Part shown: positions 7,145 to 23,166 of the stretch, one piece after another
Position numbering within the stretch: position 1 is the stretch's first letter
Layout of the letters: each line of letters starts with the position of its first letter
Origin: a virus
Reading direction: 5' to 3' (one strand)
Virus record (IMG/VR): IMGVR_UViG_3300045988_047747
Length of the DNA: 42,720 nucleotides
Program-made: the position numbers and the translations under genes
The notes under the pieces: model-generated
Seen by the model: only the letters and a program-made list of their open reading frames with translations
Databases searched by the model: none
Told to the model about the DNA's origin: nothing

Positions 7145-7156
7145 GGAGGACACCGC

Positions 7157-7561
7157 ATGAAATTTTTGACAGAGCTGTCCGATGAAGAGTTTCTGCGCCA
7201 CTGCTGGCAGATCGCCGATGTGGCAGAGGAGGTCTTGGAAAAATCCAAGATCATGGAGCTGCGCAAGGTTCTGCCGGTTCTGACCGGCGAGGAAACGCCG
7301 GAGGAGCTGGAACAGAAGAAGAAGGAGCAGGCAAAAAAGAACATTCAGGCTATGGCAAAAAGCTTGCTGTTCGACAATGCCGCTGCCACCGCAAAGCTGC
7401 TTCCGTTGCTCTATGAGCCGGACGTGGATGAAAACGGGGTGGTTGAAAACATCGGCCCGTTCAAGAAGATGCGCGCGGTAAAAGAGCTGCTGAACAACGA
7501 TGATGTGATGGATTTTTTGCTCTGGTGTCTGCCGTTGGTGCTGGCGGGTACAGACGCCTGA
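7157..7561 (+). CDS. Tail assembly chaperone (gpG-like)
   Basis: Acidic 134-aa ORF between the major tail and tape measure genes, overlapped by a -1 frame ORF. Confidence 0.75.
   Translation: MKFLTELSDEEFLRHCWQIADVAEEVLEKSKIMELRKVLPVLTGEETPEELEQKKKEQAKKNIQAMAKSLLFDNAAATAKLLPLLYEPDVDENGVVENIGPFKKMRAVKELLNNDDVMDFLLWCLPLVLAGTDA
7513..7519 (+). promoter_or_regulatory. Programmed -1 frameshift slippery heptamer T_TTT_TTG
   Basis: Zero-frame codons gaT TTT TTG. The -1 frame is open from the TGA at 7501 through 7827. Confidence 0.65.
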
Positions 7562-7827
7562 TTTCTTCCATCAGCCCGGACGCGCTGCGGCTGTTTGGCA
7601 GGCCGTATATTTTGCAGCACTGCCTGAACGCTTTGCGGCAAGAGCACATCATGCTCAGCTATCAGGCGTACATGACGGACGCTCTGGCACACCTTATAGG
7701 CGCGGAAGAGCGTTGGTACGACATGGTGGCCGGGCTTGTGGAAAACCGCCCACAGCCGCCGCAGCCGTCCGCTGATGAAGTGATAGCACGCATTAAAAAT
7801 GGCTTGAACGGGGGTGATGAAATCTGA
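7519..7827 (+). CDS. gpT-like extension of the chaperone, expressed as a G-T fusion after a -1 shift
   Basis: The -1 frame ORF has no SD of its own and ends 11 nt before the tape measure start. Confidence 0.65.
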   Translation, partial: ALVSAVGAGGYRRLISSISPDALRLFGRPYILQHCLNALRQEHIMLSYQAYMTDALAHLIGAEERWYDMVAGLVENRPQPPQPSADEVIARIKNGLNGGDEI

Positions 7828-7838
7828 AACTTTTTGAA

Positions 7839-10607
7839 TTGAGCGCCACCCTTGGGCTGGACGACAGCGCCTACCGGCAGGGCGTGGAAGAGGCAAAGTC
7901 TCAGACTAAGACCGCTGTCTCCACCATGATGAAGGATTATAACCGGCTGTACAGTGAGGTCATTCACCTTACGGCAGCCTATCAGAAATCACGGAAAGAG
8001 ACCGGGGAAACCTCCGAAAAAACTAAGGAATTTGCCCAGAAGCTGAAAGAAGCTCAGGCCCAACTCAATACCACGGCACAGGGGCTAAAGACTGCGGAAG
8101 GGTACATGAACAGCTTTGGGGATGCCGCATCGGGGTCCGGCAAGTCTCTGGCCGGTGCTATTGCACAAGGCACGGTCATGGCGGGCATTTTCTCGAAGCT
8201 CGGCTCTGCTGCACTCAGTGCCGCAGAGGGGTTCATCTCTTCCGGCATCGAGTATAACGCCCAGATCGAGAAATACACCACCGGCTTTACCAATATGTTG
8301 GGCAGCGCGGAAGCCGCCCAGCAGGTCATGAGCCAGATCCAGGAAGACGCGGCAAAAACCCCGTTTGATGTCGAGTCCCTGACAAAGGCGAACCAATACT
8401 TGATCTCTGCAGGCGAGAACGCTTCCTATGCCCGCAGTACCATCATGGCACTGGGCGACGCGGTCTCTGCGACCGGCGGCGGCAACGACGAGCTGAACCG
8501 CATGTCCCAGAACCTGCAGCAGATCGCCAACACCGGCAAGGCTACAACGGCTGATATCAAGCAGTTTGCTTATGCCGGCATCGACGTATACGGCATTCTG
8601 GCCGACTACACAGGCAAGTCCACCGCTGAAGTGCAGAAGATGACCATCAGTTATGATCTTCTGACGCAGGCTTTGCAGGCTGCTTCCGAAGAGGGCGGGC
8701 GTTACTACAACAGCATGGACACCCAGAGCCAGACCATGAATGGCCGCGTGTCTACCCTGAAGGACAACGTGAGCCAGCTGACGGGATTGCTGACCGGCGA
8801 TTTATCCGGCGGCATCGGCGTTGTAATCGGCAATCTGAACGACATGCTCGTCGCAGCACAGGAAGCTTACAAAACGGACGGCTGGATTGGTCTCGCAGGC
8901 GCGATCACCGGCCTGACGGAGCCTATCAACACGGCAAAAAACGCTCTCAAGGACTTCGCAAGCAAAGCCACCACATGGCTGGATCAGCTGAGCTATAAAC
9001 TCAACCGTTTTCTCGGAAAAGCCGCCACAGCAGACTTCGATACCTACGAAGAGTACGCGGATGCAAATAACCGGAAGAGTAACCGTAACAGGATGCGGGA
9101 AAATGCATTAAATGGCATTGGCATCAGCAACAAGAGCTGGTCGGAGCGTCAGGCGGAAGCGGCAGCAGCCAGTGGCAACAGAGGCAGCTCCATTACAACC
9201 AGCCCGTCTGGCTCTTCCGCTGGCAAAAAATCCAGATCCTCCGGCTCCAAGTCCACCACCGAAACGGTCATTTCGTCCATCTCCAGCACAGCTACCACCA
9301 CCGCGCAGAATGCGCTGGGCACTGTGACCACCAGTATCCAGACTCTCACTGAAAAGGTCAAGGACAGCGCTGGCAAAATCAAAGACCGCATCACCGAGAC
9401 CACCACCACGACCGGCAAGGAGATGGTGAACGGTGTTGCCACGACTTTTAAGCAGGTCGAGACCAAAGTCAACGGCACGGTCACAAAGGTCACAAAGACC
9501 TATGACGACATGTCAAAAACGCTGCTGGGCACCTTTACCAACGTCTCGGAAACCACCTTTAACGGCATCACCACAAAGGTGCAGCAGGCGGTGGAAAAGT
9601 ACGCGGACGGCAGCGAGCATATCAAAAAGACCGTCACAGAGACCGGCCAGCGCATCGGCGAGAACGGCGCGGAGACCTACGAGAAGATCATCACCTACAT
9701 CGACGGCGTTCAAGACAAGGTTACGGAAACCTCCAACGAGATCGACAAGAGCGTGAAGGGCACCCAGAGCCGCATTGACCAGCAGCTGAGCGAGGCTTCC
9801 GGTCAGCTGGATAAGGGCATTTTCGGGCTGGTAAAGAACACCTTCAAAGACGCCAAAAACGGCGACTGGGCAAGTCTTGGGCTGGATTTTGTCAATCTGA
9901 TCTGGGGCGAAGTGTCGCAGGGGCAGCGTAACGTGATCTCTAAGTGGCTTACGGACGCACTGACCGCGGTCAACGAGGGCTACTTCAGCGGTGGCATCGG
10001 CAAGGCATTTGATATCTTCCAGAAGCTTTTTTCTGACGGCGGGGTAAAATCCGATATCGACGGTGTGACCAATTCGGTCAAGGCTTTTGGTGAGATCATC
10101 GACGATCTTGCAGGCTCCGGCGGCGTGGGCGGCGCTCTAGGCAGCATCGTCCAGAGCTTTTCCGGCATGGCTGGCGGCATCACGTCTGCGCTGGGCACTA
10201 TCGTGTCTTTTGTTGCAGCAAATCCTATTCTTGCCCTGATCCTGGGCGTGGGCGCTGTCGCTGGCGGCATTGGCCTTGCCATGTGGATGGACAAGAAGAA
10301 TAATCAGAAGCCTGTCAGCCACTACCAGAGCCCCTTTGACAAAACCGGCATGTATGACAGTCTGGGCACCTTCTCCACCCGTGCGGCCCTGCAGTACCGC
10401 GTCACCGGCCAGCAGTCCATTGTTGACCGGCAGACCAGCATTCTGGAACGCATCGAGGGGATGCTGGACGAGCATCTGCCAGACATCGGCAAGGGTCAGG
10501 TGGTCATGGATTCCGGTGAACTGGTGGGCGTGCTGTCGACCCGCATGGCGACCAACGTAGATGCACGCATCGGCGTGACAGTGGAACGGAAAGCGAGGGG
10601 TGTGTAA
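7839..10607 (+). CDS. Tape measure protein (922 aa)
   Basis: Largest ORF, helical and low-complexity with a C-terminal G-rich hydrophobic segment, in the canonical position. TTG start is uncertain. Confidence 0.9.
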   Translation: MSATLGLDDSAYRQGVEEAKSQTKTAVSTMMKDYNRLYSEVIHLTAAYQKSRKETGETSEKTKEFAQKLKEAQAQLNTTAQGLKTAEGYMNSFGDAASGSGKSLAGAIAQGTVMAGIFSKLGSAALSAAEGFISSGIEYNAQIEKYTTGFTNMLGSAEAAQQVMSQIQEDAAKTPFDVESLTKANQYLISAGENASYARSTIMALGDAVSATGGGNDELNRMSQNLQQIANTGKATTADIKQFAYAGIDVYGILADYTGKSTAEVQKMTISYDLLTQALQAASEEGGRYYNSMDTQSQTMNGRVSTLKDNVSQLTGLLTGDLSGGIGVVIGNLNDMLVAAQEAYKTDGWIGLAGAITGLTEPINTAKNALKDFASKATTWLDQLSYKLNRFLGKAATADFDTYEEYADANNRKSNRNRMRENALNGIGISNKSWSERQAEAAAASGNRGSSITTSPSGSSAGKKSRSSGSKSTTETVISSISSTATTTAQNALGTVTTSIQTLTEKVKDSAGKIKDRITETTTTTGKEMVNGVATTFKQVETKVNGTVTKVTKTYDDMSKTLLGTFTNVSETTFNGITTKVQQAVEKYADGSEHIKKTVTETGQRIGENGAETYEKIITYIDGVQDKVTETSNEIDKSVKGTQSRIDQQLSEASGQLDKGIFGLVKNTFKDAKNGDWASLGLDFVNLIWGEVSQGQRNVISKWLTDALTAVNEGYFSGGIGKAFDIFQKLFSDGGVKSDIDGVTNSVKAFGEIIDDLAGSGGVGGALGSIVQSFSGMAGGITSALGTIVSFVAANPILALILGVGAVAGGIGLAMWMDKKNNQKPVSHYQSPFDKTGMYDSLGTFSTRAALQYRVTGQQSIVDRQTSILERIEGMLDEHLPDIGKGQVVMDSGELVGVLSTRMATNVDARIGVTVERKARGV

Positions 10608-14338: not shown

Positions 14339-14485
14339 ATGATGGCAATGTTATGGGCACAGGAAATCATGTCTGCTGAGACTATGGAGGATGCAAAGGC
14401 TCTGTACGAGCGCTGCCCCCGCCTGCTGAAGGAGAAAGTCAAGGCAATTCTTATCAAGAGCGGCTTTGAGGAGATCACGCAGTAA
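14339..14485 (+). CDS. Small phage protein (48 aa), XkdX/CD1375-like by position
   Basis: AAAGGA lies 8 nt before ATG 14339. Sits between the fibre accessory gene and the endolysin. Start is uncertain (track start 14294). Confidence 0.45.
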   Translation: MMAMLWAQEIMSAETMEDAKALYERCPRLLKEKVKAILIKSGFEEITQ

Positions 14486-14495
14486 GGAGGACGCT

Positions 14496-15149
14496 ATGGC
14501 TGAAATCATGGATGTGTCCCGATATCAGGGCACAATCAACTGGGAGAAGGTCAAGGCAAGCGGCAAGGTGGACGGCGTGATGATTCGCGCCATGGGCAAC
14601 AGTGCAGCGGGCAGACCCAGTGCGCCCTACACCGACCCGCAGTTTGCCCGCAATTACAGCGAGTGCAAGCGGCTGGGCATACCCTGTGGCGTGTATGGCT
14701 ACTTTAAAGCGGTCAACCGGGAGCAGGCTGACAAGGAGCTGGCTTACTTCAAGGAGCTGCTCGCCGGCCGGAGCTTTGAGCTGCCGGTAGCCGTGGACAT
14801 TGAGGACGAAGTGCAGAAGCCGCTGGGCAAGGCCGCACTGACCGACCTGACGGCCTACATGCTGAGCACGGTGGAAAGCTGGGGCGTGTACGCTCTGCTC
14901 TACACCGGCCTGTGGTTCGGCAGCACCTTCCTGTACATGGGCGGCGCAGCCCTGAAGCCATACGACGTGTGGCTGGCTGCCTACCGGACGAAGAAGCCCG
15001 CTCCCGGCTGGCCCTTTGGCATGTGGCAGTATACCAGCAAGGCCCGTGTACCCGGTGTGACCACCAACGTGGACATGTCCCACGCATACAAGGACTATGC
15101 GGGTATCATCAGCAAGAAGGGTCTGACCCGTCTCCGGGAGGGTAAATGA
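14496..15149 (+). CDS. Endolysin, GH25 muramidase catalytic domain only
   Basis: MDVSRYQGTINWEKVKASGKVDGVMIRA plus later VAVDIED and WQYTS motifs. AAGGAGG SD. No wall-binding repeats. Confidence 0.9.
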   Translation: MAEIMDVSRYQGTINWEKVKASGKVDGVMIRAMGNSAAGRPSAPYTDPQFARNYSECKRLGIPCGVYGYFKAVNREQADKELAYFKELLAGRSFELPVAVDIEDEVQKPLGKAALTDLTAYMLSTVESWGVYALLYTGLWFGSTFLYMGGAALKPYDVWLAAYRTKKPAPGWPFGMWQYTSKARVPGVTTNVDMSHAYKDYAGIISKKGLTRLREGK

Positions 15150-15535
15150 CCGAAAAAGAAGCTTTACTGTGGGTGCTGGGCATCCTGGGCAGCCTGTGCG
15201 CTGCTACCATCACGATCGACAAGGTGCTGGACATCATCCACAAGTACATCAAAAAGGCACAGGCCCCCGACGATGCGCAGAACAAGCGAATGGATACGCT
15301 CGAAAAAAGACTTGGCGTGCTGGAACAGGGACAGCTTCAGCACGCACAGGCCCTTGCAAGAGACCTGCGCCGCTTTGACGGCCTCGATGAAGAGATGCGT
15401 CTCGTCCTTGTTGGCGTGCAAAATCTTTTGGATTCGCAGCTGTCCGGCAACAACCGCGAAGGTATGCAAAAAAGCAAATCCGATATCAACAACTACCTGC
15501 TGAAAGGAGTAACAAATCATGGAAGCAATGTTTAA
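15146..15535 (+). CDS. Membrane-anchored coiled-coil protein of the lysis cassette
   Basis: One N-terminal TM segment (LLWVLGILGSLCAATITI). ATGA coupling to the endolysin gene. Confidence 0.6.
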   Translation: MTEKEALLWVLGILGSLCAATITIDKVLDIIHKYIKKAQAPDDAQNKRMDTLEKRLGVLEQGQLQHAQALARDLRRFDGLDEEMRLVLVGVQNLLDSQLSGNNREGMQKSKSDINNYLLKGVTNHGSNV

Positions 15536-15854
15536 TTTTATCCCCGCACCCATCGCACTGGTACTGATGTTCATTGGCTTTGCCGCGCTGGCTGTTGGCG
15601 CTATCCGGCTGGGTTACAAGCAGTACGTCAAGGACTGGGCGCTGGAGCTCGTGACCATCGCTGAGGACAGCATCATGGGCAGCGGTCAGGGCGCAAAGAA
15701 AAAAGCACAGGTCTTTGCCGCACTGCGCGGCGCACTGCCGGACTGGCTGAAGCCTTTTATCACCGATGAAGTGCTGGACAGCGTGATCGAAAAAGCCGTC
15801 AGCATGATGAAAAAGGCACTTGCAGAAAAGAAGCCTACCATCAACAAGGGGTAA
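15519..15854 (+). CDS. Holin, LL-H-family-like
   Basis: N-terminal TM segment (PAPIALVLMFIGFAALAVGAI) followed by a helical tail resembling LL-H holins. Confidence 0.65.
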   Translation: MEAMFNFIPAPIALVLMFIGFAALAVGAIRLGYKQYVKDWALELVTIAEDSIMGSGQGAKKKAQVFAALRGALPDWLKPFITDEVLDSVIEKAVSMMKKALAEKKPTINKG

Positions 15855-16108: not shown

Positions 16109-16517
16109 ATGACCAGCACTACATACGAGCATTTTGTTGACACCAACAAAATGTACGCCGCACAAGAGCAATTTCGTGACATCACGAAAATGGTGACAAA
16201 ACGTCACCGTTTCGCCGCGCTTGGCAATATGGTGCGCAACGCCGGACAGCTGCCGCAACCCTTCTGGCTCGGTGCTGCCTGTGGCGGCGGCTCGTGTAGT
16301 CTTTCCGCCAGCGTTGCAAGGGCTTAATGCAGAACAGATAAAAGCTGTGATAAAACGTGCGCCGCTTGGGAGGTATGACCGGAAAATCGCCCGGTTGCGG
16401 TACGTTGACCAGCTATGCCAAGTTGATATTGCAGCGCGTGTGCCGTATTGTCGGACGTCAATCGGCAATAGGCTAAAAATTATTGATAAAAAGCTAGACG
16501 AAAGGAGCTCACCGTGA
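16109..16517 (+). pseudogene. ArpU / sigma-70 region-4-like regulator split over two frames (16109..16327 and 16221..16517)
   Basis: Second frame ends with KIARLRYVDQLCQVDIAARVPYCRTSIGNRLKII (HTH-like) but has no SD or plausible start. The frames overlap by 107 nt. Confidence 0.45.
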
Positions 16518-16657
16518 ATCTCGAAAATGTTCCGACCGCAAATCTTATTACAGAGCTTCGCAAACGCGAGGGCGTGAAAACGACCGTTGTTGAGCCCTAT
16601 CAGGACGCAGCGGTAAGCGTCAACGGCCCTGCGCTGGTTCTTGTCGTGACGGATTGA
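16514..16657 (+). CDS. Small BC1881-like protein (47 aa)
   Basis: AAAGGAG lies 6 nt before the GTG. Sequence NLITELRKREGVKTTVVEPYQDAAVSVNGPALVLVV matches my recollection of the BC1881 small-protein family. Confidence 0.5.
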   Translation: MNLENVPTANLITELRKREGVKTTVVEPYQDAAVSVNGPALVLVVTD

Positions 16658-16881: not shown

Positions 16882-17205
16882 TTACAGCAGCTTGTAGTGC
16901 TCCGCCAGCAAAAAGCGGACATACGCCGGGCACGCACGCTTTTCACAGCACCAGTCCTGCACGGTTCGCCGCGGAATGCCCGCCCGCTTTGCAAAAGTGG
17001 TCTGAGACAGACTGGTGCGGACTACTAGCTCACGCATTGGAAGATGAGCTAAATCCCAGATGGTGGACAGCCTTGCCTTCTCGGCATCCAAGTCGATGCA
17101 GCCGGAAGTGTCATCCGGGACGCTAAGAGTGATGTTGTTGAGGAACGCTGCCCTGGACGCTTCCGGGTCAGCAGCCATAATAAAGAGTTCAGCAGTAGTA
17201 TACAT
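16882..17205 (-). CDS. HTH DNA-binding protein (107 aa)
   Basis: GAAGGAGAAG SD before ATG 17205. C-terminus LSQTTFAKRAGIPRRTVQDWCCEKRACPAYVRFLL is an XRE-like HTH. Confidence 0.75.
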   Translation of the reverse strand: MYTTAELFIMAADPEASRAAFLNNITLSVPDDTSGCIDLDAEKARLSTIWDLAHLPMRELVVRTSLSQTTFAKRAGIPRRTVQDWCCEKRACPAYVRFLLAEHYKLL

Positions 17206-17264
17206 AGTCTTCTCCTTCTTAAATCTCCCCGGTCGATGTTCGCACATCGGCTGGGGACTTTTCT

Positions 17265-17549
17265 TTACTCCATATCTTCCAGAGCTTCAAGATACTTCGG
17301 GTAAAGATCTTCCACGACGGCCTGTCTCTCAACGTCGTCCAGATTGCCGTTCATGAGTGCCTCACCCTCTTTATCGGAGAGTTCGATGCTGGTAGTGACC
17401 ATCAGGTCGCGAGCGTCCAGATGAGAGGTCTTGACGTCGCCATCATCGGTAAGGTGCGCGTAAATCATCCAAACGCCGTTGTCGCACTCAATTTCGGTAC
17501 CGGTGGCCATAACCTTAGTTGCGAACTCGTCAGCAGTAAGCTTTTTCAT
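17265..17549 (-). CDS. Small strongly acidic protein (94 aa)
   Basis: GGAGGT SD before ATG 17549. Many D/E residues. First gene after a consensus promoter. Confidence 0.7.
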   Translation of the reverse strand: MKKLTADEFATKVMATGTEIECDNGVWMIYAHLTDDGDVKTSHLDARDLMVTTSIELSDKEGEALMNGNLDDVERQAVVEDLYPKYLEALEDME

Positions 17550-17601
17550 AATTGTTACCTCCATGTCTCCATGTGTTTGTGTGGTGTCTTTCACGGTCTT
17601 T

Positions 17602-17630
17602 ATTATACACGCATTGCGTGTAATTGTCAA
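17602..17630 (-). promoter_or_regulatory. Leftward consensus promoter TTGACA-17-TATAAT
   Basis: Minus strand reads ttgaca attacacgcaatgcgtg tataat. Confidence 0.75.
17606..17622. promoter_or_regulatory. Operator: perfect 8-1-8 palindrome tacacgca-t-tgcgtgta overlapping the spacer and -10
   Basis: Reverse complement checked by hand; only the central base differs. Confidence 0.7.
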
Positions 17631-17647
17631 GACTTTTTTGAAAATTT

Positions 17648-17664
17648 TATACGCGTTGCGTGCA
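17648..17664. promoter_or_regulatory. Second operator-like site (14/17 identical to 17606..17622)
   Basis: tatacgcgttgcgtgca, centred 42 nt from the centre of the first site. Confidence 0.5.
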
Positions 17665-17788
17665 AATCCTTGAGCGTCCATACAGCCCTGTGCTGTGTGG
17701 GCGCTTTTCTTTTTTGTCCTTCGTTGTGCGTTCGTTGTCTCTCACGGCGGTTTAAAAAAGTACACTGGGCGCAAAGGGAGGGGGTGCC

Positions 17789-18166
17789 ATGTGGCACAAG
17801 TTTAACCCAAACCCGCGCGGGAGCAGCGTCGGGGACTGCGTAGTGCGGGCGGTAGCTGCGGCCACCGGCCGGAGCTGGGAGCAGGCGTATATTGCGCTGG
17901 CGCTCACCGGTTACGCCCTCGGCGATATGCCCAGCGCTAACCGCACATGGGGCGCGTATCTTCAAAAACAGGGCTACAAGCGCCGCATGGTGGAAGCAGA
18001 CTGCACCACCTGTTACACCGTGGCAGATTTTGCCCGGGAGTATCCGCGCGGCGTGTATGTACTGGGCTGCTCCGGCCACGTTCTGGCCGTGATCGACGGC
18101 GCGTGGTGGGACAGCTGGGACAGCGGCGCAGAATGCCCGATCTACTACTGGTACAAGGAGGACTGA
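17789..18166 (+). CDS. Hypothetical protein with papain-like Cys/His signature
   Basis: GGGAGGGGG SD. NPNPRGSSVGDCVVRAV...GHVLAVIDG...WDS looks like a Cys-His-Asp peptidase layout. Confidence 0.6.
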   Translation: MWHKFNPNPRGSSVGDCVVRAVAAATGRSWEQAYIALALTGYALGDMPSANRTWGAYLQKQGYKRRMVEADCTTCYTVADFAREYPRGVYVLGCSGHVLAVIDGAWWDSWDSGAECPIYYWYKED

Positions 18167-18169
18167 TCC

Positions 18170-18613
18170 ATGCCGATCTATAACGGATACCCACAAGTGT
18201 TTTACCCGCAACAGCCGCAAGGGCAGTTGGAACAGCTCAGGGCAGCACAGTACCAGCCCCAGCCCGTCATGATGCCGACAATGCAGGGGCAGACCGCACC
18301 GACTGACAGCGGCTTTATTTGGGTACAGGGCGAAGCGGCTGCCCGGGGCTATCTGGTAGCCAACGGGAGCCGAGTGCTTTTACTGGATGCCGATTCCGAT
18401 ACCTTCTACATCAAAGAAGTGGGGCAGGACGGCAGGCCGTTCCCTCTTCGCATTTACGATTACAAAGAGCGCACCAGCGGCCCCAAAGCGTCGATTGCAG
18501 CCACGCAAGCCGCAGGCGGGGAGTATGTCACCCGCAAGGAGTTCGACGAGTTGGCGGCAAAGCTGGCGGCGTTGGAGAAGCAAGAAGCACCAGAGCCGGA
18601 AAAGGAGGGCTAA
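18170..18613 (+). CDS. Hypothetical protein, P/Q-rich N-terminus plus conserved-looking core (GFIWVQGEAAARGYLV...FYIKEV)
   Basis: AAGGAGG SD. 147 aa. Confidence 0.7.
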   Translation: MPIYNGYPQVFYPQQPQGQLEQLRAAQYQPQPVMMPTMQGQTAPTDSGFIWVQGEAAARGYLVANGSRVLLLDADSDTFYIKEVGQDGRPFPLRIYDYKERTSGPKASIAATQAAGGEYVTRKEFDELAAKLAALEKQEAPEPEKEG

Positions 18614-18616
18614 ACG

Positions 18617-18841
18617 ATGGGCAGCAGCTTGTATAACTCGATGGGCCGACAGACCCAGAATCCCATTGGCGGGCAGTTCCAGCAGTTTATGGGCCAGATG
18701 CAGGGAAAGAACCCGCAGGAGATGATAAACCAGATGCTCACCTCCGGCCAGCTCTCACAGCAGCAGCTCAACGCCATTCAGCAGCGGGCGCAGCAGATCG
18801 CGCCGATGCTCAACGGCATGAAAAATATGTTCGGATTCTGA
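18617..18841 (+). CDS. Small Q/N/M-rich protein (74 aa)
   Basis: AAAGGAGGG SD. Low-complexity sequence QFQQFMGQMQGKNPQEMINQML. Confidence 0.65.
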   Translation: MGSSLYNSMGRQTQNPIGGQFQQFMGQMQGKNPQEMINQMLTSGQLSQQQLNAIQQRAQQIAPMLNGMKNMFGF

Positions 18842-18894
18842 AATGCGGCCGCATTTAGAATAAATTTAAAAATCTAACGTAAAGGAGTAAAACT

Positions 18895-19734
18895 ATGTCT
18901 CTTTCTTCTGATAGCACGGTTCTGACCATGCCGGTGCAGCCCGCCAACGGCTACAGCAACGGCTTCAACGGCTGGGGAGGCGACTGGATGGGCTGGATCG
19001 TCCTCTTTCTGATTTTCGGCATGTTCGGCTGGGGCGGCATGGGCGGCTTTGGCTGGGGCGGCGGCATGGGCGGCGCTTCGCCTTATATGACCAGCGCTGT
19101 CACACAGGCAGACCTGCAGCGCGGCTTCGACAATCAGAGCGTCATGAACAAGCTGAATGGGCTGGAAAGCGGCCTGTGCGATGGCTTCTACGCCATGAAC
19201 ACCGGGATGCTTCAGGGCTTCAACGGCGTGCAGCAGGGCCTGAACGGCGTCACCAACGCCATGCAGCAGGGCTTCAACGGCACCAACATCGCGCTGATGC
19301 AGGGTCAGAATGCTCTGGCTACACAGCTGGCAGACTGCTGCTGCAAGACCCAGACCGCGATCCAGGGAGTCAACTACAATCTGGCCACTCAGGAGTGCGA
19401 CACCCGGAACCAGATGCAGCAGGGCTTCTGCGCAACGCAGAATGCCATGAACAACAACACCCGGGACATTATCGAGAATCAGAACAGCAACACCCGCGCG
19501 GTGCTCGACTTCCTGACCAACGATAAGATCGCCACCCTGCAGAGCGAGAACAACGAGCTGCGTCGGGCTGCTTCTCAGGATCGCCAGAGCGCGTTCCTGA
19601 CCACCGCGATGAATGCGCAGACCAACCAGATCATCGGGACTCTGCAGCAGAAAGCTCCCGTGCCTGCCTATCAGGTGCCCAACCCCAACGCCATTTACTA
19701 TGGCTGTGGGACCGGCTGCGGCAGCTGCGCATAA
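18895..19734 (+). CDS. Low-complexity membrane protein: G/W-rich TM region, QQGFNG-type repeats, CCC and C-terminal CGTGCGSCA
   Basis: AAAGGAG SD. 279 aa. GWGGDWMGWIVLFLIFGMFGWGGMGGFGWGGGMGG, then Q/N-rich repeats with conserved-looking Cys. Confidence 0.7.
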   Translation: MSLSSDSTVLTMPVQPANGYSNGFNGWGGDWMGWIVLFLIFGMFGWGGMGGFGWGGGMGGASPYMTSAVTQADLQRGFDNQSVMNKLNGLESGLCDGFYAMNTGMLQGFNGVQQGLNGVTNAMQQGFNGTNIALMQGQNALATQLADCCCKTQTAIQGVNYNLATQECDTRNQMQQGFCATQNAMNNNTRDIIENQNSNTRAVLDFLTNDKIATLQSENNELRRAASQDRQSAFLTTAMNAQTNQIIGTLQQKAPVPAYQVPNPNAIYYGCGTGCGSCA

Positions 19735-19826
19735 CTGAATCACGACAACTTTTTGAGTGGTTGTTTCCAAAATGGAAATGCCCACATCAAAATGTTCAGC
19801 CCCTGAGCTGATTTTGCAAACCAGAG

Positions 19827-19855
19827 CGCCGGGGCAGCAGTCCCGGCGTTTTTCT
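19827..19855 (+). terminator. Intrinsic terminator inside the cargo island
   Basis: cgccggg / cccggcg 7-bp stem, 8-nt loop, then TTTTTCT. Confidence 0.7.
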
Positions 19856-19873
19856 ATGAAAGGAGCCGATAAA

Positions 19874-20299
19874 ATGGCTGAATTTAGCAACTCCAACACC
19901 GTCATCGTGGCGGCGGGGGAAAACCTTCCCCTGACCGAGACCGCAGTGAAAGCCCCTGCTTGTATCGTGCACCGTGATGGAAGCGGCCTTGTGACCTTGC
20001 GCGGTCTGCCCAGCGGGCAGTGCCGGGCCCGTTTCAAAGTAAGCTTTGGCGGCAATATCGCCATTCCCACCGGCGGCACCGTGGGACCCATTTCCGTGGC
20101 GCTGGCTGTCGGCGGTGAGTCGCTGACCAGTGCGACCGCCATTGTCACCCCGGCGGCAGTCGAAAATTACTTCAACGTTTTTGTGGCTGCTTTCATCGAG
20201 GTGCCGCGCGGCTGCTGCGTGACCGTAGCGGTTAAAAACACCAGTACGCAGGCTGTCAGCATTGCAAACAGCAATCTGATCGTTGAGCGGGTAGCATAA
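19874..20299 (+). CDS. Beta-rich protein resembling BclA/C1q-like (TNF-fold) C-terminal domains
   Basis: AAAGGAG SD before ATG 19874. The pattern VIVAAGENLPL...IVHRDGSGLVTLRG...VALAVGGESL...VAVKNTSTQAVSIANSNLIVERV recalls exosporium BclA C-terminal domains. Confidence 0.5.
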   Translation: MAEFSNSNTVIVAAGENLPLTETAVKAPACIVHRDGSGLVTLRGLPSGQCRARFKVSFGGNIAIPTGGTVGPISVALAVGGESLTSATAIVTPAAVENYFNVFVAAFIEVPRGCCVTVAVKNTSTQAVSIANSNLIVERVA

Positions 20300-20315
20300 G
20301 AAAGGAGATAAAGTC

Positions 20316-20717
20316 ATGCTGGATAAACTGAATCACCTGAAGGACGAAATGTGCGACGAGCTCATGGAGCTGACCGACAAAAAGAACCGCTCCCCGGGTG
20401 ATATCGAGATGATCGGCGAGATCGTGGATATCATTCTGGACATCCACCGCATCGAGGACTACTGCGAGGGCGGCGATTACAGCCGTGCGGGTGAGTGGGA
20501 AGCTGACATGCGCGGGACTTTTGGCCACGATGCCGGGAACGGTTACAACCGGGGCAACAGCTACGCCAACCGTGGCCGTCACTATGTGCGCGGGCACTAC
20601 TCCCGCACGGATGGCCGTGAGCGCATGATCTCCGACATCGAGGACATGATGCAGGAAGCCACCGGTGCAGAGCGTGACGCCTACAAGCGGGCGGCAGACA
20701 TCCTGCGGAACGCATAA
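20316..20717 (+). CDS. Hypothetical protein (133 aa)
   Basis: AAAGGAG SD. Acidic ends with a basic G/R/Y-rich centre (GNGYNRGNSYANRGRHYVRGHYSR). Confidence 0.65.
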   Translation: MLDKLNHLKDEMCDELMELTDKKNRSPGDIEMIGEIVDIILDIHRIEDYCEGGDYSRAGEWEADMRGTFGHDAGNGYNRGNSYANRGRHYVRGHYSRTDGRERMISDIEDMMQEATGAERDAYKRAADILRNA

Positions 20718-20735
20718 GGAAGGAGGACGGCAGGC

Positions 20736-21065
20736 ATGGATATTGACGAGATCAATGAGCACATTCGCAAGCTCAAGTGCGAAGAAACCAGCTGGCAAAG
20801 CGTCAACAAGCTTGCCGCCCTCTGCACTGTGCGGGACGAGCTGGAAGAAAAGCAGGCACCTGAAACGCAGACCCAGTCATTGCCGCCCACGGATTACCGG
20901 GCGGCGTACTCCACAGCAGCGGAACCGCAAAGCGACTTTGTGGCGGCTGCCAGCTCTGTTCCTTTCGGAGGTCTGATGCAGGTGCTTGACGAGCACATGA
21001 AGGCAATAAAGCTGGTTTACCCGAAAGAGTATGAGCTCGTAATGCGGAAGATAAGCGACTTGTAA
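20736..21065 (+). CDS. Hypothetical protein (109 aa)
   Basis: AGGAGG SD. Last gene before attP. Confidence 0.65.
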   Translation: MDIDEINEHIRKLKCEETSWQSVNKLAALCTVRDELEEKQAPETQTQSLPPTDYRAAYSTAAEPQSDFVAAASSVPFGGLMQVLDEHMKAIKLVYPKEYELVMRKISDL

Positions 21066-21131: not shown

Positions 21132-21179
21132 GAAAGCCAACAAATTGATGATTATTCACGTTAAAACGCCAAATAAATT

Positions 21180-21227
21180 TGATTTGTAATCAGTGGGTTG
21201 CGGGTTCAACTCCTGTCACCAGCTCCA
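21180..21227 (+). other. attP core candidate: 3' part of a tRNA-Thr(UGU)-like gene (anticodon loop to CCA)
   Basis: tga tttgtaa tcagt gggtt gcggg ttcaact cctgt caccagc t cca. No matching 5' half lies upstream. Site is adjacent to the integrase gene. Confidence 0.65.
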
Positions 21228-21234
21228 AAAATAA

Positions 21235-21279
21235 ACGCACGAACGATGAAAATGAATCGTTCGTGCGTTTTTCTTTTTG
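21235..21279. terminator. Strong hairpin terminator (bidirectional context)
   Basis: Perfect 13-bp stem acgcacgaacgat/atcgttcgtgcgt, loop gaaaatga, then TTTTTCTTTTT, with an A-run upstream. Confidence 0.8.
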
Positions 21280-21338: not shown

Positions 21339-22472
21339 TCAGTACTTCATCTTCTGCATTTCCTGCAACAAATAGGCTGGATCGTTGTGGGACACGTACT
21401 TGTTTGCCGTGGTGGAGAAATTTTTGTGGCCCAAGATGGCCTGCACGGCGGTCTTTTCCAGGCCGCACTCCACCATCTTACTACTGGCCGTGTGGCGCAG
21501 CGTGTGTGGATGCACGCCCTCTATATGGCATTCCTGCATCAACGCCCGGAACTTTGTAGCCACGTTGCGCTTATCCAGCTTTGTGCAGGCCTTGGATGGA
21601 ATCAGCCATTCACACCCGCTGTCCAGCATCCAAAAGGCAATGATCTTGTAAATGGGCTCAAGGATGGGGATAATGCGGTTTTTGCCCATCTCGGTCTTTT
21701 CACCGCCCTGCATGTACCGCTCTTTCAGGTGCACGTCCTCGCAGCGCATGGAAAGCAGCTCGTCAATGCGCATACCGGTATAAAGAAGCACCATTGCGAT
21801 TTGCGCCGTCTGCCCAAACTTCGGGTCATTCTGTCGGCTGCTGATCTGCTCGATCTCTTGGGCGGTCAGGGTGCGTTCTTCCTTGCCTGTAGCCGCTGGG
21901 AGCTGCAAGAGCATAGCATAGTTTTTGTTTATGATGTCCTGAGCCATTGCCCACTCGCAGATCTGGCTGAAAAGCGTGCGCTGCTTTTCGCAGGAGCTGC
22001 GGGAGAGGCCCTTTTCCACCATTGCGTCAATGACCTGTTGATAATCTGCAGCTTTCAAGTCCCGCAATTGTCGGTCGTACAGCGGCGTAGCCTTTGCATA
22101 GGCCAGCTCATAACCCTTTTTCATGTCAGTGCTGAGCTTGTCAAATTTGGGCTGCGCTTTCCATTGGGCATAGGCATCCGCAAAGGTGCACTTCAGACGC
22201 GCTGCGGGGGTGTTCTGGGCGTTGTAAGCGTCTAATGCTTGTACGGCTTCGCCTGCCGTTTCAAACGTCCCCAGAACGTCCCTTTTGGCCGTAAGCGCCA
22301 CATACGGTCTTGCCCGCGTCCCGCTCAGTTTATACACGCTGCCGCTTCCCTTGGGACGGCGGCGCTTTTTTCTTTGCTGCGGGGCGGCTTCCGGCTGCTT
22401 TTTCCCGCACCACGGACAAAAAGAAGCACCATCCGGGATCTCTTTCCGGCAGCATGGTCTCACGCATTTCAT
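21339..22472 (-). CDS. int: Tyrosine integrase with N-terminal zinc-ribbon
   Basis: C-terminal HTLRHT...LGHKNFSTTANKYVH catalytic motifs. N-terminus CVRPCCRKEIPDGASFCPWCGKK. Confidence 0.9.
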   Translation of the reverse strand: MKCVRPCCRKEIPDGASFCPWCGKKQPEAAPQQRKKRRRPKGSGSVYKLSGTRARPYVALTAKRDVLGTFETAGEAVQALDAYNAQNTPAARLKCTFADAYAQWKAQPKFDKLSTDMKKGYELAYAKATPLYDRQLRDLKAADYQQVIDAMVEKGLSRSSCEKQRTLFSQICEWAMAQDIINKNYAMLLQLPAATGKEERTLTAQEIEQISSRQNDPKFGQTAQIAMVLLYTGMRIDELLSMRCEDVHLKERYMQGGEKTEMGKNRIIPILEPIYKIIAFWMLDSGCEWLIPSKACTKLDKRNVATKFRALMQECHIEGVHPHTLRHTASSKMVECGLEKTAVQAILGHKNFSTTANKYVSHNDPAYLLQEMQKMKY

Positions 22473-22475: not shown

Positions 22476-23063
22476 TTACTCCTTTTTCTGCCCGATATAT
22501 CCGAAGGCACCATTTTCAGCAGCGGCCCTTCCGGCCTTGTAGTTGATCTTCAGGTCTTCAATGGGAGGGTGTGGAGCGTCCGGGCATGGGTCTAATCCCA
22601 TGCTCTGGGCAAAGTTGTATTGGTCGATGATTGTTCCGCATATGCTGACCCGGTTATTGAGCGGGCAGTGCAAATTTGCAGCTATCTCCGATATGACAGC
22701 AGGCGGGCTGCTGCCGTGACTGCCTTTCAGTATGAAGAGAAGCAGCCTTTTTGTCAGTGGCGGCAGGCTTACCACGAGACGGCGCAGCTCCGTGTTTAAC
22801 TCATCGTCTGCCTTGCCGTTATCCGGCACTTTGTACAGATCCGGGTGAGTCATCTCCATGAACACCGTGATGGGCGACACCCCACACGCCGTGCACCAGT
22901 CCATGATCTCGTCACTGTCCGGGCTGGTGCATCCTTTTTCCCAGCTCTGCACGGTGCGCTCTCCTTTTTCGATGCGCCTTGCGATCTCCGCTTGGCTCAG
23001 GCCAGCAGACACCCGCGTTTTTGCAAGTGCCTTTCCGATTTGGCTCGCCGTAAAATAACTCAT
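22476..23063 (-). CDS. XRE-family HTH protein with an approximately 130-aa C-terminal domain
   Basis: GGGGGTGA SD before ATG 23063. GLSQAEIARRIEKGERTVQSWEKG HTH. Stop lies 3 nt before the integrase start. Confidence 0.8.
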   Translation of the reverse strand: MSYFTASQIGKALAKTRVSAGLSQAEIARRIEKGERTVQSWEKGCTSPDSDEIMDWCTACGVSPITVFMEMTHPDLYKVPDNGKADDELNTELRRLVVSLPPLTKRLLLFILKGSHGSSPPAVISEIAANLHCPLNNRVSICGTIIDQYNFAQSMGLDPCPDAPHPPIEDLKINYKAGRAAAENGAFGYIGQKKE

Positions 23064-23094
23064 ACTTTCACCCCCATAAAACCAGTGTGTTTTT

Positions 23095-23128
23095 AACAAA
23101 AAATGGCGCAGAAAAAGTCTGCGCCATT
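23095..23128 (-). terminator. Terminator-like hairpin in the leader of the HTH-integrase operon
   Basis: Perfect 11-bp stem aatggcgcaga/tctgcgccatt, loop aaaag. On the minus strand it is followed by TTTTGTT, 38 nt before the ATG. Confidence 0.55.
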
Positions 23129-23166
23129 CGACAAATTTTATCCGTATTTTGTTTTCCAACGGCGCA

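What the first reader, a model, noticed from the sequence alone, without database searches (positions are those of the whole stretch)
17789..21065. Seven-gene cargo island of unusual low-complexity, membrane and BclA-like proteins next to attP
All seven ORFs are co-oriented, each has a strong AGGAGG-type SD, and none resembles a standard phage function. They fill the 3.3 kb between a regulatory region and attP, the classical site for lysogenic-conversion cargo. Contents: a papain-like Cys/His motif protein; a P/Q-rich protein with a conserved-looking core; a 74-aa Q-rich protein; a 279-aa G/W-rich membrane protein with Q/N repeats and Cys clusters; a TNF/C1q-like beta protein; and two charged hypotheticals. 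A terminator (19827..19855) splits the island into two units. This looks like a coherent envelope or surface-directed module of unknown role and is my best candidate for an undescribed system.
Basis: inference. Interest (0 to 1): 0.75.

Follow-up and report, generated by a model that had tools for sequence, protein, structure and literature searches.

The report
Widespread uncharacterised gut-phage gene cassette

Summary
There are seven co-oriented ORFs (O1-O7, 17789-21065), each with an AGGAGG-type ribosome-binding site, flanked by strong terminator hairpins, with a tRNA-like attP and an integrase downstream.

The gene order O1-O2-O3-O4-O5-O6-(O7) recurs in more than 200 loci from Lachnospiraceae, Oscillospiraceae and Ruminococcus phages. 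A small sigma-region-4-like regulator gene usually sits just upstream.

O1 models as a minimal papain-like Cys/His/Asp protein. O5 models as a stand-alone TNF/C1q jelly roll closest to the exosporium proteins ExsF, BxpB and BclA.

The "lysogenic-conversion cargo" reading fails on four counts:
- The cassette is in 66 of 68 testable relatives.
- In other phages it lies between the MuF and scaffold genes, downstream of an integrase, or among replication genes.
- It is complete in the cultured Butyrivibrio phage Ceridwen, which grows lytically and has no reported lysogeny genes.
- Its core (O4 plus DUF7841 and beta-protein partners) also occurs in crAss-like and Bacteroides phages. O4 alone occurs in viruses of gut methanogens.

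No Pfam, NCBIfam, PADLOC or PDB sequence match assigns a function.

My best guess, at low confidence, is a self-regulated lytic-cycle cassette. It would build a membrane-associated, cysteine-rich coiled-coil assembly (O4) capped by an exchangeable beta-sandwich protein (O5). A virion-borne role is a close rival.

The parts
16221..16517 (+). SIG: small sigma-70-region-4 / LuxR-type HTH-like ORF, probable dedicated regulator of the cassette. The true start is probably downstream of the listed TTG.
   Evidence: The sequence ...IARLRYVDQLCQVDIAARVPYCRTSIGNRLKIIDKKL reads as an HTH (my reading; no Pfam hit). Homologues or analogues lie on the same strand within 3.5 kb upstream of the module in 37 of 52 non-redundant loci, and within 282 bp in 20 of them. 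They are directly upstream in Dulem virus 33, Ceridwen and MT835516.
16514..16657 (+). 47-aa ORF that accompanies SIG, function unknown
   Evidence: phrog_5765, E = 1.6e-17. The same pair of small ORFs precedes O1 in Dulem virus 33.
17672..17706 (+). Intrinsic-terminator-like hairpin plus U-tract that insulates the cassette from upstream transcription
   Evidence: -25.9 kcal/mol, z = -6.7.
17789..18166 (+). O1: minimal papain-like Cys/His/Asp protein (putative peptidase, amidase or transglutaminase-like enzyme); a loose associate of the core
   Evidence: phrog_3754, E = 1e-30. Invariant C17, H97 and D108. AF2 pLDDT 96.4. Top Foldseek hits are ComA C39, AvrPphB, staphopain, Josephin and Tae4, but at E >= 0.15 and TM about 0.45. 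The family also occurs without O2-O7 in Bacillus, Pseudomonas, Lak and Myxococcus phages. Its position within the cassette varies.
18170..18613 (+). O2: P/Q/Y-rich N-terminus, a beta-type core domain of about 55 aa with an invariant Lys, a C-terminal amphipathic helix and a charged tail
   Evidence: phrog_21718. The architecture is conserved across 24 diverse homologues and found in 134 loci. No PDB or Pfam match.
18617..18841 (+). O3: 74-aa Q/M-rich, predicted helical protein
   Evidence: phrog_22984, E = 3.5e-19. Found in 101 loci, always between O2 and O4.
18895..19734 (+). O4: the invariant core protein. It has a Gly/Trp-flanked hydrophobic segment (about residues 30-46), a long polar Q/N/T-rich predicted helical region with a CCC motif, and a C-terminal Cys/Gly tail.
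   Evidence: phrog_16490, E = 1e-61. At least 8000 90%-identity clusters. Alignment. Homologues in crAss-like, Bacteroides and C. perfringens phages and in Methanomassiliicoccales viruses. The Cys tail is universal. Only sub-threshold influenza HA2 hits in the PDB.
19823..19852 (+). Hairpin plus U-tract between O4 and O5, probably an attenuator. The O5 ribosome-binding site follows immediately, leaving no room for a promoter.
   Evidence: -23.2 kcal/mol, z = -2.7.
19874..20299 (+). O5: stand-alone TNF/C1q-like jelly-roll protein with four conserved Cys. The fold implies a trimer, but this is an inference.
   Evidence: phrog_20016. AF2 pLDDT 87.8. Foldseek PDB hits: F-BclA CTD, ExsF, ExsFA, BxpB, BclA, EDA and 4-1BBL at E = 3e-6 to 1e-4 and TM 0.65-0.75. 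691 clusters at 50% identity, and those listed are short (72-196 aa), single-domain proteins. In other modules it is replaced by a Cys-rich protein with no detectable homology.
20316..20717 (+). O6: helical ends around an R/G/Y/S-rich low-complexity centre
   Evidence: Found in 107 loci after position 5. In other modules it is replaced by a DUF7841 protein with an R/D/E/Y-rich region.
20736..21065 (+). O7: 109-aa predicted helical protein, the last gene of the cassette
   Evidence: Found in 44 loci, including Ceridwen (E = 3e-30) and C. perfringens phage XP41-N3 (E = 3.5e-9).
21160..21226 (+). tRNA-like 3' fragment, the probable attP core (context, not part of the cassette)
   Evidence: Rfam tRNA, 21.3 bits, E = 0.035, model positions 9-63. 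ARAGORN finds no complete tRNA here.
21233..21270 (.). Bidirectional terminator-like hairpin between the cassette/attP and the integrase
   Evidence: -26.6 kcal/mol, z = -7.4.

Best explanation
Shown. O1-O7, together with the small HTH gene SIG upstream, are one copy of an autonomous and very widespread phage cassette. Its invariant core is O4.
- Position 5 holds either the TNF-like O5 or a Cys-rich protein with no detectable homology to it.
- Position 6 holds either an O6-type or a DUF7841-type protein with an arginine-rich low-complexity region.
- O2 and O3 precede O4.
- O1 is a looser associate.
- The cassette moves as a unit between plasticity zones of phage genomes: after the lysis genes, in the MuF-scaffold gap, next to integrases, and among early genes.
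- Both temperate and apparently virulent phages keep it.

Inferred. The cassette serves the lytic cycle, not lysogeny. None of its proteins except O1 looks like an enzyme. They look structural: coiled coil, jelly roll, low-complexity linkers and Cys clusters.

My working model is as follows. O4 forms an oligomeric coiled-coil stalk. Its Gly/Trp-rich hydrophobic segment engages the cytoplasmic membrane. Its CCC motif and C-terminal Cys/Gly tail cross-link the oligomer through disulfides or metal ions. An exchangeable beta-sandwich cap (O5 here) binds the stalk. O2, O3, O6 and O7 act as assembly partners or chaperones. O1 may process one of them. SIG switches the unit on independently of the neighbouring operons. 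The assembly would act on the cell membrane or envelope late in infection, as an accessory to lysis or egress that is spanin-like or fusogen-like in logic.

The function, topology, timing and all protein-protein contacts are unproven.
For: Synteny. The order O1-O2-O3-O4-O5-O6-(O7) holds in 58 of 86 first-round loci. After iterating the profiles, O4 was found in 168 loci, O2 in 134, O5 in 116, O6 in 107, O3 in 101, O1 in 99 and O7 in 44, across many Clostridia families.

Not optional. 66 of 68 testable contigs sharing the window's endolysin carry an O4 module.

Not lysogeny-bound. The cassette is complete in Ceridwen, which was seen only in lytic growth, with no excisionase reported, on a host I know as non-sporulating. 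The core is present in crAss-like cr109_1 and in Bacteroides phage C3_41T2LP.

Autonomy. A SIG-like gene lies upstream in 37 of 52 non-redundant loci. Flanking terminators are present. The genomic context varies.

Recurrent adjacency to lysis genes in unrelated lineages.
- The window has endolysin, holin, SIG and then the cassette.
- Ceridwen has the same arrangement.
- Endolysin genes lie 327-1800 bp upstream in nine genome loci.
- In cr109_1, a holin and a LysB/FtsL-like gene immediately precede the DUF7841 and O4 genes.
- Small ORFs combining a TM segment and a coiled coil are embedded in some versions.

O4 features. A hydrophobic Gly/Trp-rich segment, polar helical repeats, an invariant CCC and a universal Cys tail. 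Other annotators labelled its homologues 'viral fiber' or 'spike glycoprotein'. There are sub-threshold HA2-like matches.

O5 is a TNF-like jelly roll, a fold that typically forms trimeric caps on stalks (my own knowledge).

Homing-endonuclease insertions inside the cassette in three phages fit a conserved, frequently co-infecting target.
Against: There is no direct evidence on timing, localisation or interactions.
- The link to lysis genes is not universal. In MT835516 the lysis cassette is 15 kb away. In C3_41T2LP and XP41-N3 the module sits among early or recombination genes.
- Monoderm Clostridia and wall-less Methanomassiliicoccales have no outer membrane for a spanin-like device to fuse.
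- The O4 hydrophobic segment shows no positive-inside bias (0.53 K/R on each side), so even its topology is open.
- The partner proteins have no signal peptides (read by eye), so they can meet an extracytoplasmic O4 domain only after holin action.
- No covariation was found between the O4 tail and the type of position-5 protein.
- The HA2 similarity is not significant (E about 0.5-1).
- The same facts fit a virion-borne role almost as well.
Confidence: 0.33

Rival explanations
1. Virion-borne accessory. O4 and O5 form a fibre or decoration on the particle, or are packaged membrane-penetration (ejection) proteins. The Gly/Trp-rich segment would insert into the host membrane at entry. O1 would be a maturation protease, by analogy with the adenovirus protease that activates protein VI.
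For: - In 47 loci the cassette lies inside the head gene block between the MuF-like minor head protein and the scaffold and major capsid genes, with the O1 start codon abutting the MuF stop codon.
- The distribution is independent of host phylum and even domain, and structural relatives of O5 carry siphovirus, podovirus and myovirus labels. That fits something that travels with the particle.
- TNF-like jelly rolls cap phage fibres and spikes, for example the phi812 knob and the cyanophage A4 tail.
- Swapping non-homologous proteins at position 5 resembles receptor-binding tip exchange.
- The O4 segment has no flanking positive charges, like a fusion or penetration peptide and unlike a signal anchor.
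- Homologues have been annotated as 'viral fiber' or 'spike'.
Against: - In the window, the MuF-scaffold gap holds an Ant anti-repressor and other non-structural genes, so it is a plasticity zone and not a structural slot.
- In other phages the cassette sits next to integrases or among replication genes.
- Having its own small regulator and flanking terminators is unusual for virion genes.
- O5 is about 60% identical between phages whose major capsid genes differ in length (297 vs 389 aa). Their homology was not tested.
- The proteins rich in low-complexity sequence are atypical of virions.
- I found no published virion proteome that lists them.
Confidence: 0.25
2. Inter-phage competition or superinfection exclusion. 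O4 and its partners would be displayed at the membrane to block DNA entry or adsorption by other phages, or by progeny on cell debris. This would be useful to both virulent and temperate phages.
For: - The cassette lies in the accessory zones where exclusion genes usually sit: between lysis genes and attP, and next to integrase or repressor genes.
- It is an insulated unit with its own regulator.
- A membrane-associated core protein has precedent in known exclusion proteins such as lactococcal Sie2009 and HK97 gp15 (my own knowledge).
- The variable position-5 protein could track variable targets.
Against: - Known exclusion systems are one or two genes, not five to seven conserved ones.
- O5 is extremely conserved, at 87-96% identity across more than 100 clusters. 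That is the opposite of an arms-race signature.
- Near-universal presence and location inside a head operon are atypical.
- There are no PADLOC matches.
Confidence: 0.12
3. One reading: lysogenic-conversion cargo that remodels the cell or spore surface of the lysogen, in an exosporium-like way.
For: - The cassette is adjacent to attP in the window and its close relatives.
- The nearest solved structures to O5 are exosporium proteins: F-BclA, ExsF, BxpB and BclA.
- Cys-rich and Q-rich proteins plus a papain-like (transglutaminase-type) fold recall spore-coat cross-linking (my own knowledge).
- A small HTH-only regulator recalls GerE (my own knowledge).
Against: - The cassette is complete in Ceridwen, which grows lytically, has no excisionase reported, and infects a host I know as non-sporulating.
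- The core occurs in crAss-like and Bacteroides phages, and O4 in methanogen viruses.
- In 47 loci it lies inside the head operon.
- It is present in 66 of 68 relatives, not sporadically.
- O5 has no collagen repeats, no recognisable exosporium leader and no Pfam BclA_C hit.
- None of the partner proteins has a signal peptide.
Confidence: 0.05

Closest known systems
ExsFA/BxpB, F-BclA CTD and BclA CTD (TNF/C1q-like exosporium and endospore-appendage proteins of the Bacillus cereus group; PDB 7r1m, 8d02, 9h38, 9h3d, 1wck)
   Same: O5 has the same jelly-roll fold (Foldseek probability 1.00, TM 0.65-0.75). Like ExsF and BxpB it is a stand-alone domain of about 140-170 aa. Its family members end in a similar ...IVERVA-type last strand (compared with BclA from my memory of that sequence).
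   Different: Sequence identity is only 10-16%. O5 has no collagen-like repeats, no exosporium-targeting N-terminus and no Pfam hit. It is encoded by phages, including one that infects a non-sporulating host. It has four conserved cysteines that the Bacillus proteins lack, as far as I recall.
Papain-like cysteine peptidases (clan CA), for example the C39 double-glycine peptidase domain of ComA (3k8u), staphopain and Josephin
   Same: O1 has an invariant Cys at the N-terminus of a helix, a His at the start of a beta-strand and an Asp in the next strand. Its alpha+beta order is papain-like. All of its top Foldseek hits are of this kind.
   Different: The matches are weak (E >= 0.15, TM about 0.45). 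O1 is only 125 aa and matches no Pfam, NCBIfam or PDB-sequence family. It has no fused ABC transporter. Its substrate is unknown. The family also occurs in many phages that lack O2-O7.
Two-component spanins (i-spanin Rz / LysB type) of phages of Gram-negative bacteria
   Same: O4 has an N-terminal hydrophobic segment followed by a long predicted coiled-coil region with conserved cysteines. It often lies next to holin and endolysin genes. In crAss-like cr109_1 it follows a holin and a LysB/FtsL-like gene.
   Different: There is no partner outer-membrane lipoprotein. Most carriers infect monoderm Clostridia, and some O4 genes are in archaeal viruses. O4 has four to six conserved partner genes. 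It is not always near the lysis genes. There is no sequence relationship to spanins in any library searched.
Phage morons / lysogenic-conversion cassettes
   Same: The cassette is an insulated transcription unit with terminators on both sides, lying in a plasticity zone next to attP.
   Different: It is near-universal in its lineage. Apparently virulent phages keep it. It has five to seven genes in a fixed order. It carries its own regulator.
Class I viral fusion proteins (influenza HA2)
   Same: A Gly-rich hydrophobic segment is followed by a long polar helical region. HA2 chains are the commonest sub-threshold PDB hits for the O4 profile. Other annotators labelled crAss homologues 'spike protein/glycoprotein'.
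   Different: E is about 0.5-1, which is not significant. O4 has no C-terminal transmembrane anchor and the phages are not enveloped. The likeness may be purely compositional.

Membership tests
BclA / ExsF-BxpB exosporium C1q-like proteins | TNF/C1q-like jelly-roll fold | tested here: met
   AF2 model at pLDDT 87.8. Foldseek hits to 9h38, 9h3d, 7r1m, 8d02 and 1wck at E = 3e-6 to 1e-4 and TM 0.65-0.75.
BclA / ExsF-BxpB exosporium C1q-like proteins | Sequence membership (Pfam BclA C-terminal domain model or a PDB sequence match) | tested here: not met
   No Pfam family at E <= 1. A profile search of PDB sequences found no BclA, ExsF or BxpB chain.
BclA / ExsF-BxpB exosporium C1q-like proteins | Collagen-like GXX repeat stalk and exosporium-targeting N-terminus (BclA type) | tested here: not met
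   O5 is 141 aa and begins directly with the beta domain. All 150 listed representatives are short (72-196 aa), single-domain proteins.
BclA / ExsF-BxpB exosporium C1q-like proteins | Encoded by, and acting in, a spore-forming host | tested here: not met
   The full cassette is in a phage of Butyrivibrio fibrisolvens, which I know as non-sporulating. The cassette core is in Bacteroides and crAss-like phages.
Papain-like cysteine peptidases (clan CA; C39-like) | Conserved Cys/His(/Asp) catalytic residues in the canonical structural positions | tested here: met
   C17, H97 and D108 are invariant in 59 sequences. In the model, the Cys is at the N-terminus of a helix and the His and Asp are on consecutive strands.
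Papain-like cysteine peptidases (clan CA; C39-like) | Significant structural or sequence match to a family member | tested here: inconclusive
   The top Foldseek hits are all papain-like, but at E = 0.15-1 and TM 0.43-0.45. There is no Pfam, NCBIfam or PDB-sequence hit.
Papain-like cysteine peptidases (clan CA; C39-like) | Peptidase activity and a defined substrate (for example a double-glycine leader) | not testable with these tools
   A conserved NP[LF]F..[LM]GG motif near the N-terminus of most O3 homologues was noted. The window's O3 lacks it at that position, and no cleavage can be inferred.
Spanins (i-spanin/o-spanin) | N-terminal membrane anchor plus periplasmic coiled coil with Cys | tested here: inconclusive
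   A hydrophobic segment, a polar helical region and conserved Cys are present. Topology is undetermined.
Spanins (i-spanin/o-spanin) | Partner outer-membrane lipoprotein gene, and a diderm host | tested here: not met
   None of O1-O7 has a lipobox or signal peptide (read from the translations). Most carriers are Clostridia phages.
Moron / lysogenic-conversion cassette | Sporadic accessory distribution, restricted to temperate phages | tested here: not met
   Present in 66 of 68 relatives. Present in the lytically growing Ceridwen and in crAss-like phages.
Moron / lysogenic-conversion cassette | Expression from the prophage | not testable with these tools
   No transcriptome data. No sigma-70-type promoter was found upstream of O1 by the consensus scan.
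Known anti-phage defence systems | Match to a PADLOC model | tested here: not met
   0 families for all seven proteins at E <= 1.
Endospore appendage (ENA) subunits (DUF3992 / DUF4183) | Pfam DUF3992 or DUF4183 match for the position-5 proteins | tested here: not met
   No Pfam hit for O5 or for the alternative Cys-rich position-5 protein.

The most novel reading that the evidence does not exclude
The cassette is the Clostridia-phage form of a previously unrecognised machine shared across the gut virome. It is built around O4, a membrane-active, fusion-protein-like coiled-coil protein with metal- or disulfide-linked Cys clusters, and capped by exchangeable beta-sandwich proteins. Phages of Bacillota and Bacteroidota, and perhaps viruses of gut methanogens, would use it for a step of entry or egress that no model phage has revealed.
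Probability: 0.25. Interest if true: 0.85.

Novelty: categorically new. Interest (0 to 1): 0.68.

Why it matters
O4 and O5 each have at least 8000 distinct 90%-identity clusters in public data. They occur in human, lemur, rodent and rumen gut viromes. Their partners keep a fixed gene order across phages of different bacterial families, and the core extends to crAss-like and Bacteroides phages.

Yet every component is annotated 'hypothetical', a DUF, or a PHROG of unknown function. I found no paper that discusses the module.

A cassette this conserved, kept by both temperate and apparently virulent phages and carrying its own regulator, very probably does something important in the phage life cycle in the gut. 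Working out what it does could reveal a new step in lysis, entry or virion biology. It would also annotate a sizeable piece of gut viral dark matter.

Cultured carriers make the question directly testable: Butyrivibrio phage Ceridwen, several C. perfringens phages and Bacteroides phage C3_41T2LP.

Tried and rejected
1. Pfam, NCBIfam and PADLOC scans of all seven proteins found nothing above noise. PHROGs gave only families of unknown function.
2. Profile searches of PDB sequences with O1, O2, O4, O5 and the alternative position-5 family gave no significant hit. The HA2 hits for O4 are sub-threshold, and I do not treat them as homology.
3. A Pfam scan of 24 diverse O2 homologues returned only scattered coiled-coil noise.
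4. Literature searches for DUF7841, for BclA with prophage and Faecalibacterium, and for the cultured C. perfringens carriers found nothing about these genes. The Ceridwen paper lists them as hypothetical.
5. Spore or exosporium function was considered because of the Foldseek hits for O5. I rejected it on host range.
6. Lysogenic conversion was rejected on distribution.
7. The positive-inside rule for O4 topology was uninformative.
8. Covariation between the O4 C-terminal tail and the type of position-5 protein was not seen.
9. hhalign of O5 against the alternative Cys-rich position-5 protein showed no detectable homology.
10. I considered an O1 C39-type peptidase acting on a GG-containing O3 N-terminus. 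The motif is absent at that position in the window's own O3, and O1 occurs widely without O3, so I did not adopt this idea.
11. The plasmid collection has only one O4 hit, on an 861-kb replicon. The family is therefore essentially phage-borne.
12. My crude ORF-based neighbour extraction was too noisy for a family-count scan, so I did not use it quantitatively.

Full report
**What the window is**

The 42.7-kb window reads as a complete temperate siphovirus-like genome.
- TerS (39633-40103) and TerL (40027-41337).
- A MuF-like minor head protein (164-1219), then a gap holding an Ant anti-repressor and other small genes.
- tRNA-Lys (3740-3816), scaffold (3892-4479) and major capsid protein (4483-5376).
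- A 922-aa ORF (7839-10607) that I take to be the tape measure from its size and position, followed by tail genes.
- An endolysin (14466-15149) and a Holin_LLH-type holin (15519-15854).
- After the region under study, a tyrosine integrase (21339-22472, minus strand) and a 227-aa minus-strand ORF (22476-23159) that reads like a repressor. I did not test that assignment.

Weak nucleotide matches to Faecalibacterium phages and a G+C of about 55% suggest an Oscillospiraceae host, but this is not established.

**Checking the observation**

Each has a GGAGG-type ribosome-binding site.

The hairpin between O4 and O5 is real (-23.2 kcal/mol, followed by a U-tract). The O5 ribosome-binding site starts right after it, so O5-O7 must be read through from upstream.

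Two stronger hairpins bracket the unit, at 17672-17706 and 21233-21270. A tRNA-like fragment at 21160-21216 scores below Rfam's threshold but is in the right place for an attP core.

O1-O5 match PHROG families of unknown function at E = 1e-19 to 1e-61. O4 and O5 each saturate the 8000-candidate limit of the protein search. These are genuine, conserved genes. Pfam, NCBIfam and PADLOC say nothing about any of them.

**Is it a module?**

Yes. I fetched 80 viral loci and 80 genome loci with an O4 profile and labelled their ORFs with iterated profiles of O1-O7.
- In the first round, 58 of 86 loci had O1-O2-O3-O4-O5-O6 in that order, with or without O7.
- After adding the species-level genome loci, O4 was found in 168 loci, O2 in 134, O5 in 116, O6 in 107, O3 in 101, O1 in 99 and O7 in 44.
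- The same order holds in Lachnospiraceae, Oscillospiraceae, Ruminococcus, Acutalibacteraceae, Blautia and others.

Dulem virus 33 has all seven genes between its endolysin and integrase, although nucleotide identity is about 70% in the parts that align.

The variations are themselves regular.
- Position 5 holds either O5 or a Cys-rich protein of about 130 aa (MACKPVCKLCDRLVISQ...) with no detectable homology to O5 (hhalign probability 0.3%).
- Position 6 holds either an O6-type protein or a DUF7841 protein with an R/D/E/Y-rich region.
- O1 sometimes follows O6, or is separated from O2.
- Small ORFs combining a TM segment and a coiled coil are sometimes inserted.

**An extra component**

A small ORF that reads as a sigma-70-region-4 or LuxR-type HTH (SIG; window 16221-16517) lies on the same strand within 3.5 kb upstream of the module in 37 of 52 non-redundant loci. 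In 20 of them it lies within 282 bp. It is directly upstream in Dulem virus 33, Ceridwen and MT835516.

In the window, two minus-strand genes have been inserted between SIG and O1. One is HTH-like, and a perfect sigma-70 consensus lies at 17630-17602. I therefore count SIG as the cassette's probable regulator. No library confirms the HTH assignment.

**Structures**

O1, with 59 homologues at 50-94% identity, gives a pLDDT 96.4 model. It has a Cys at the N-terminus of a helix and His and Asp on consecutive strands, all invariant. Its best PDB matches are ComA C39, AvrPphB, staphopain, Josephin-2, PaTox and Tae4. All are papain-like, but the matches are weak (E >= 0.15, TM about 0.45). I call it papain-like at the level of fold and assign no family.

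The O1 family is much wider than the cassette. It occurs in Tsamsa-like Bacillus phages, Geobacillus GBK2, Lak megaphages, PAK_P1-like Pseudomonas phages and Mx1. O1 is therefore a loose associate of the core.

O5 gives a pLDDT 87.8 all-beta model. It matches the F-BclA C-terminal domain, ExsF, ExsFA, BxpB and BclA, as well as the TNF family members EDA and 4-1BBL and a phage spike knob, at E = 3e-6 to 1e-4 and TM 0.65-0.75. In the viral structure library its best matches are uncharacterised proteins of about 135-145 aa from gut phages labelled Sipho-, Podo- and Myoviridae.

The O5 family has 691 clusters at 50% identity. Those listed are short (72-196 aa), single-domain proteins with no collagen fusions. 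So "BclA-like" is true of the fold only.

**Why it is not lysogenic-conversion cargo**

1. Of 80 viral contigs whose endolysin is at least 92% identical to the window's, 68 extend far enough downstream to judge. 66 of those carry an O4 module. The other two show an O2 hit just before the available sequence ends.
2. The cassette occupies different places in different phages.
   - In 47 loci it sits between the MuF gene and the tRNA, scaffold and capsid genes, the same gap that holds Ant in the window.
   - In 55-60-kb Lachnospira-type phages it follows a serine or tyrosine recombinase.
   - In C. perfringens phage XP41-N3 and Bacteroides phage C3_41T2LP it lies among anti-repressor, recombination and replication genes.
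   - In MT835516 the lysis cassette abuts the integrase while the module is 15 kb away, behind MuF and a SIG-like gene.
3. Butyrivibrio phage Ceridwen is a cultured phage seen only to grow lytically. [quoted passage not shown] It has O1-O7 at E = 2e-13 to 4e-54, after its endolysin, a small TM protein, a SIG-like ORF and a terminator. An HNH-like gene is inserted between its O5 and O6.
4. The core extends beyond Bacillota.
   - crAss-like phage cr109_1 has, in order: holin, a LysB/FtsL-like protein, a DUF7841 protein with an R/Y/D-rich tail, an O4 homologue (E = 4e-29), a 146-aa protein that looks beta-rich, and a 188-aa protein that looks like a beta domain plus coiled coil.
   - The cultured Bacteroides phage C3_41T2LP has an O4 homologue (E = 2e-37) with comparable neighbours.
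   - O4 alone, annotated phrog_16490, also occurs in viruses assigned to Methanomassiliicoccales.

The same distribution rules out a spore-specific role.

**What it might do**

Apart from O1, nothing in the cassette looks enzymatic. The proteins look like building material.
- **O4:** a hydrophobic segment flanked by Gly and Trp and almost devoid of nearby Lys or Arg (0.53 on each side), about 200 residues of polar predicted helix, an invariant CCC, and a universal C-terminal Cys/Gly tail.
- **O5:** a jelly-roll fold that usually forms trimeric caps on stalks (my own knowledge).
- **O2:** a P/Q/Y-rich tail, a small beta domain and an amphipathic helix.
- **O3:** small and Q/M-rich.
- **O6 or DUF7841:** arginine-rich low-complexity regions.

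Lysis genes are the most frequent identifiable neighbours in unrelated lineages. Other annotators' remote-homology labels for O4 homologues are 'viral fiber' and 'spike glycoprotein', which agrees with my sub-threshold HA2 hits.

I therefore favour a self-regulated lytic-cycle cassette that assembles an O4-based, Cys-linked coiled-coil structure at the membrane. It would be capped by O5 and act late in infection. My confidence is about one in three.

A virion-borne fibre or penetration device explains the cross-host distribution, and the uncharged hydrophobic segment, about as well. An exclusion function is possible. The evidence against each is set out in the structured fields.

**Known or new?**

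I found no paper on these genes. 'DUF7841' returns nothing, and the Ceridwen paper lists them as hypothetical. The F-ENA paper explains what the structural neighbours of O5 do in Bacillus spores, but it does not mention phages.

The nearest known things are each alike in one respect only:
- TNF-like exosporium proteins (fold of O5);
- papain-like peptidases (fold of O1);
- i-spanins (outline of O4 and its frequent neighbours);
- morons (insulated unit in a plasticity zone).

As a system the cassette has no described counterpart, so I rate it categorically new. The caveat is that the function is unknown, and it could still turn out to be a new variant of a known kind of lysis or virion accessory.

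Noticed in passing
window 1220-3890: The gap between the MuF-like gene (164-1219) and tRNA-Lys, scaffold and capsid holds an Ant anti-repressor (2114-2860, phrog_130, E = 3e-81) and small unknown ORFs. In 47 related loci the same gap holds the O1-O6 cassette, with a tRNA of varying identity (Tyr, Gln or Thr) just before the scaffold gene. It looks like a recombination hot spot marked by a tRNA.
   Followed up: partly
window 16882-17681 (minus strand): Two minus-strand genes sit between SIG and O1. One is HTH-like (phrog_25567, weak HTH_3). A perfect TTGACA-17-TATAAT promoter lies at 17630-17602, inside the annotated start of the second ORF. They are absent at this position in Dulem virus 33 and Ceridwen, so they are probably a later insertion, and the real start of the second gene is downstream of the promoter.
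   Followed up: partly
L001 7567-8118; L249 10148-10942; L047 9520-10356; L251 4892-5512: Free-standing HNH-like or I-HmuI-like homing-endonuclease genes are inserted inside or beside the cassette in four phages. In Dulem virus 33 the insertion is between O3 and O4. In Ceridwen and in a Lachnospira-type phage it is between O5 and O6. In Bacteroides phage C3_41T2LP it is just upstream of O4.
   Followed up: no
L250 (crAss-like cr109_1) 3919-9017: Translating these genes with table 11 leaves in-frame stops in several of them, including the O4 homologue. This fits the stop-codon recoding known in some crAss-like phages (my own knowledge).
   Followed up: no
L252 (Caudoviricetes sp. vir335, host Methanomassiliicoccales) 5632-6555: A virus assigned to an archaeal host carries an O4 homologue (E = 9e-16; annotated phrog_16490) with two CCC motifs and a longer N-terminus but none of the bacterial-phage partner genes. 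It suggests exchange across domains within the gut virome, or a wrong host assignment.
   Followed up: partly
window 38348-39562: A 404-aa fusion of a ParB-like nuclease domain and a DNA methyltransferase (phrog_498, E = 1e-147) lies just upstream of the small terminase gene, with tRNA-Trp at 38085-38160 before it.
   Followed up: no
protein P0123 and loci L141, L159, L163, L167: Some close O4 and O5 homologues are filed under Alistipes, Paludibacteraceae, Treponema or Devosia genomes. Given that otherwise only Clostridia carry this cassette type, these look like mis-binned MAG contigs or contamination.
   Followed up: no
window 17789-18166 (O1) versus the phage collection: The small papain-like O1 family (phrog_3754) is present in 122 phage records, including about 68 Pseudomonas phage records, Tsamsa-like Bacillus phages and Lak megaphages. 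It is mostly annotated hypothetical or 'putative peptidase'. This is a widespread phage enzyme family with no known role in its own right.
   Followed up: partly
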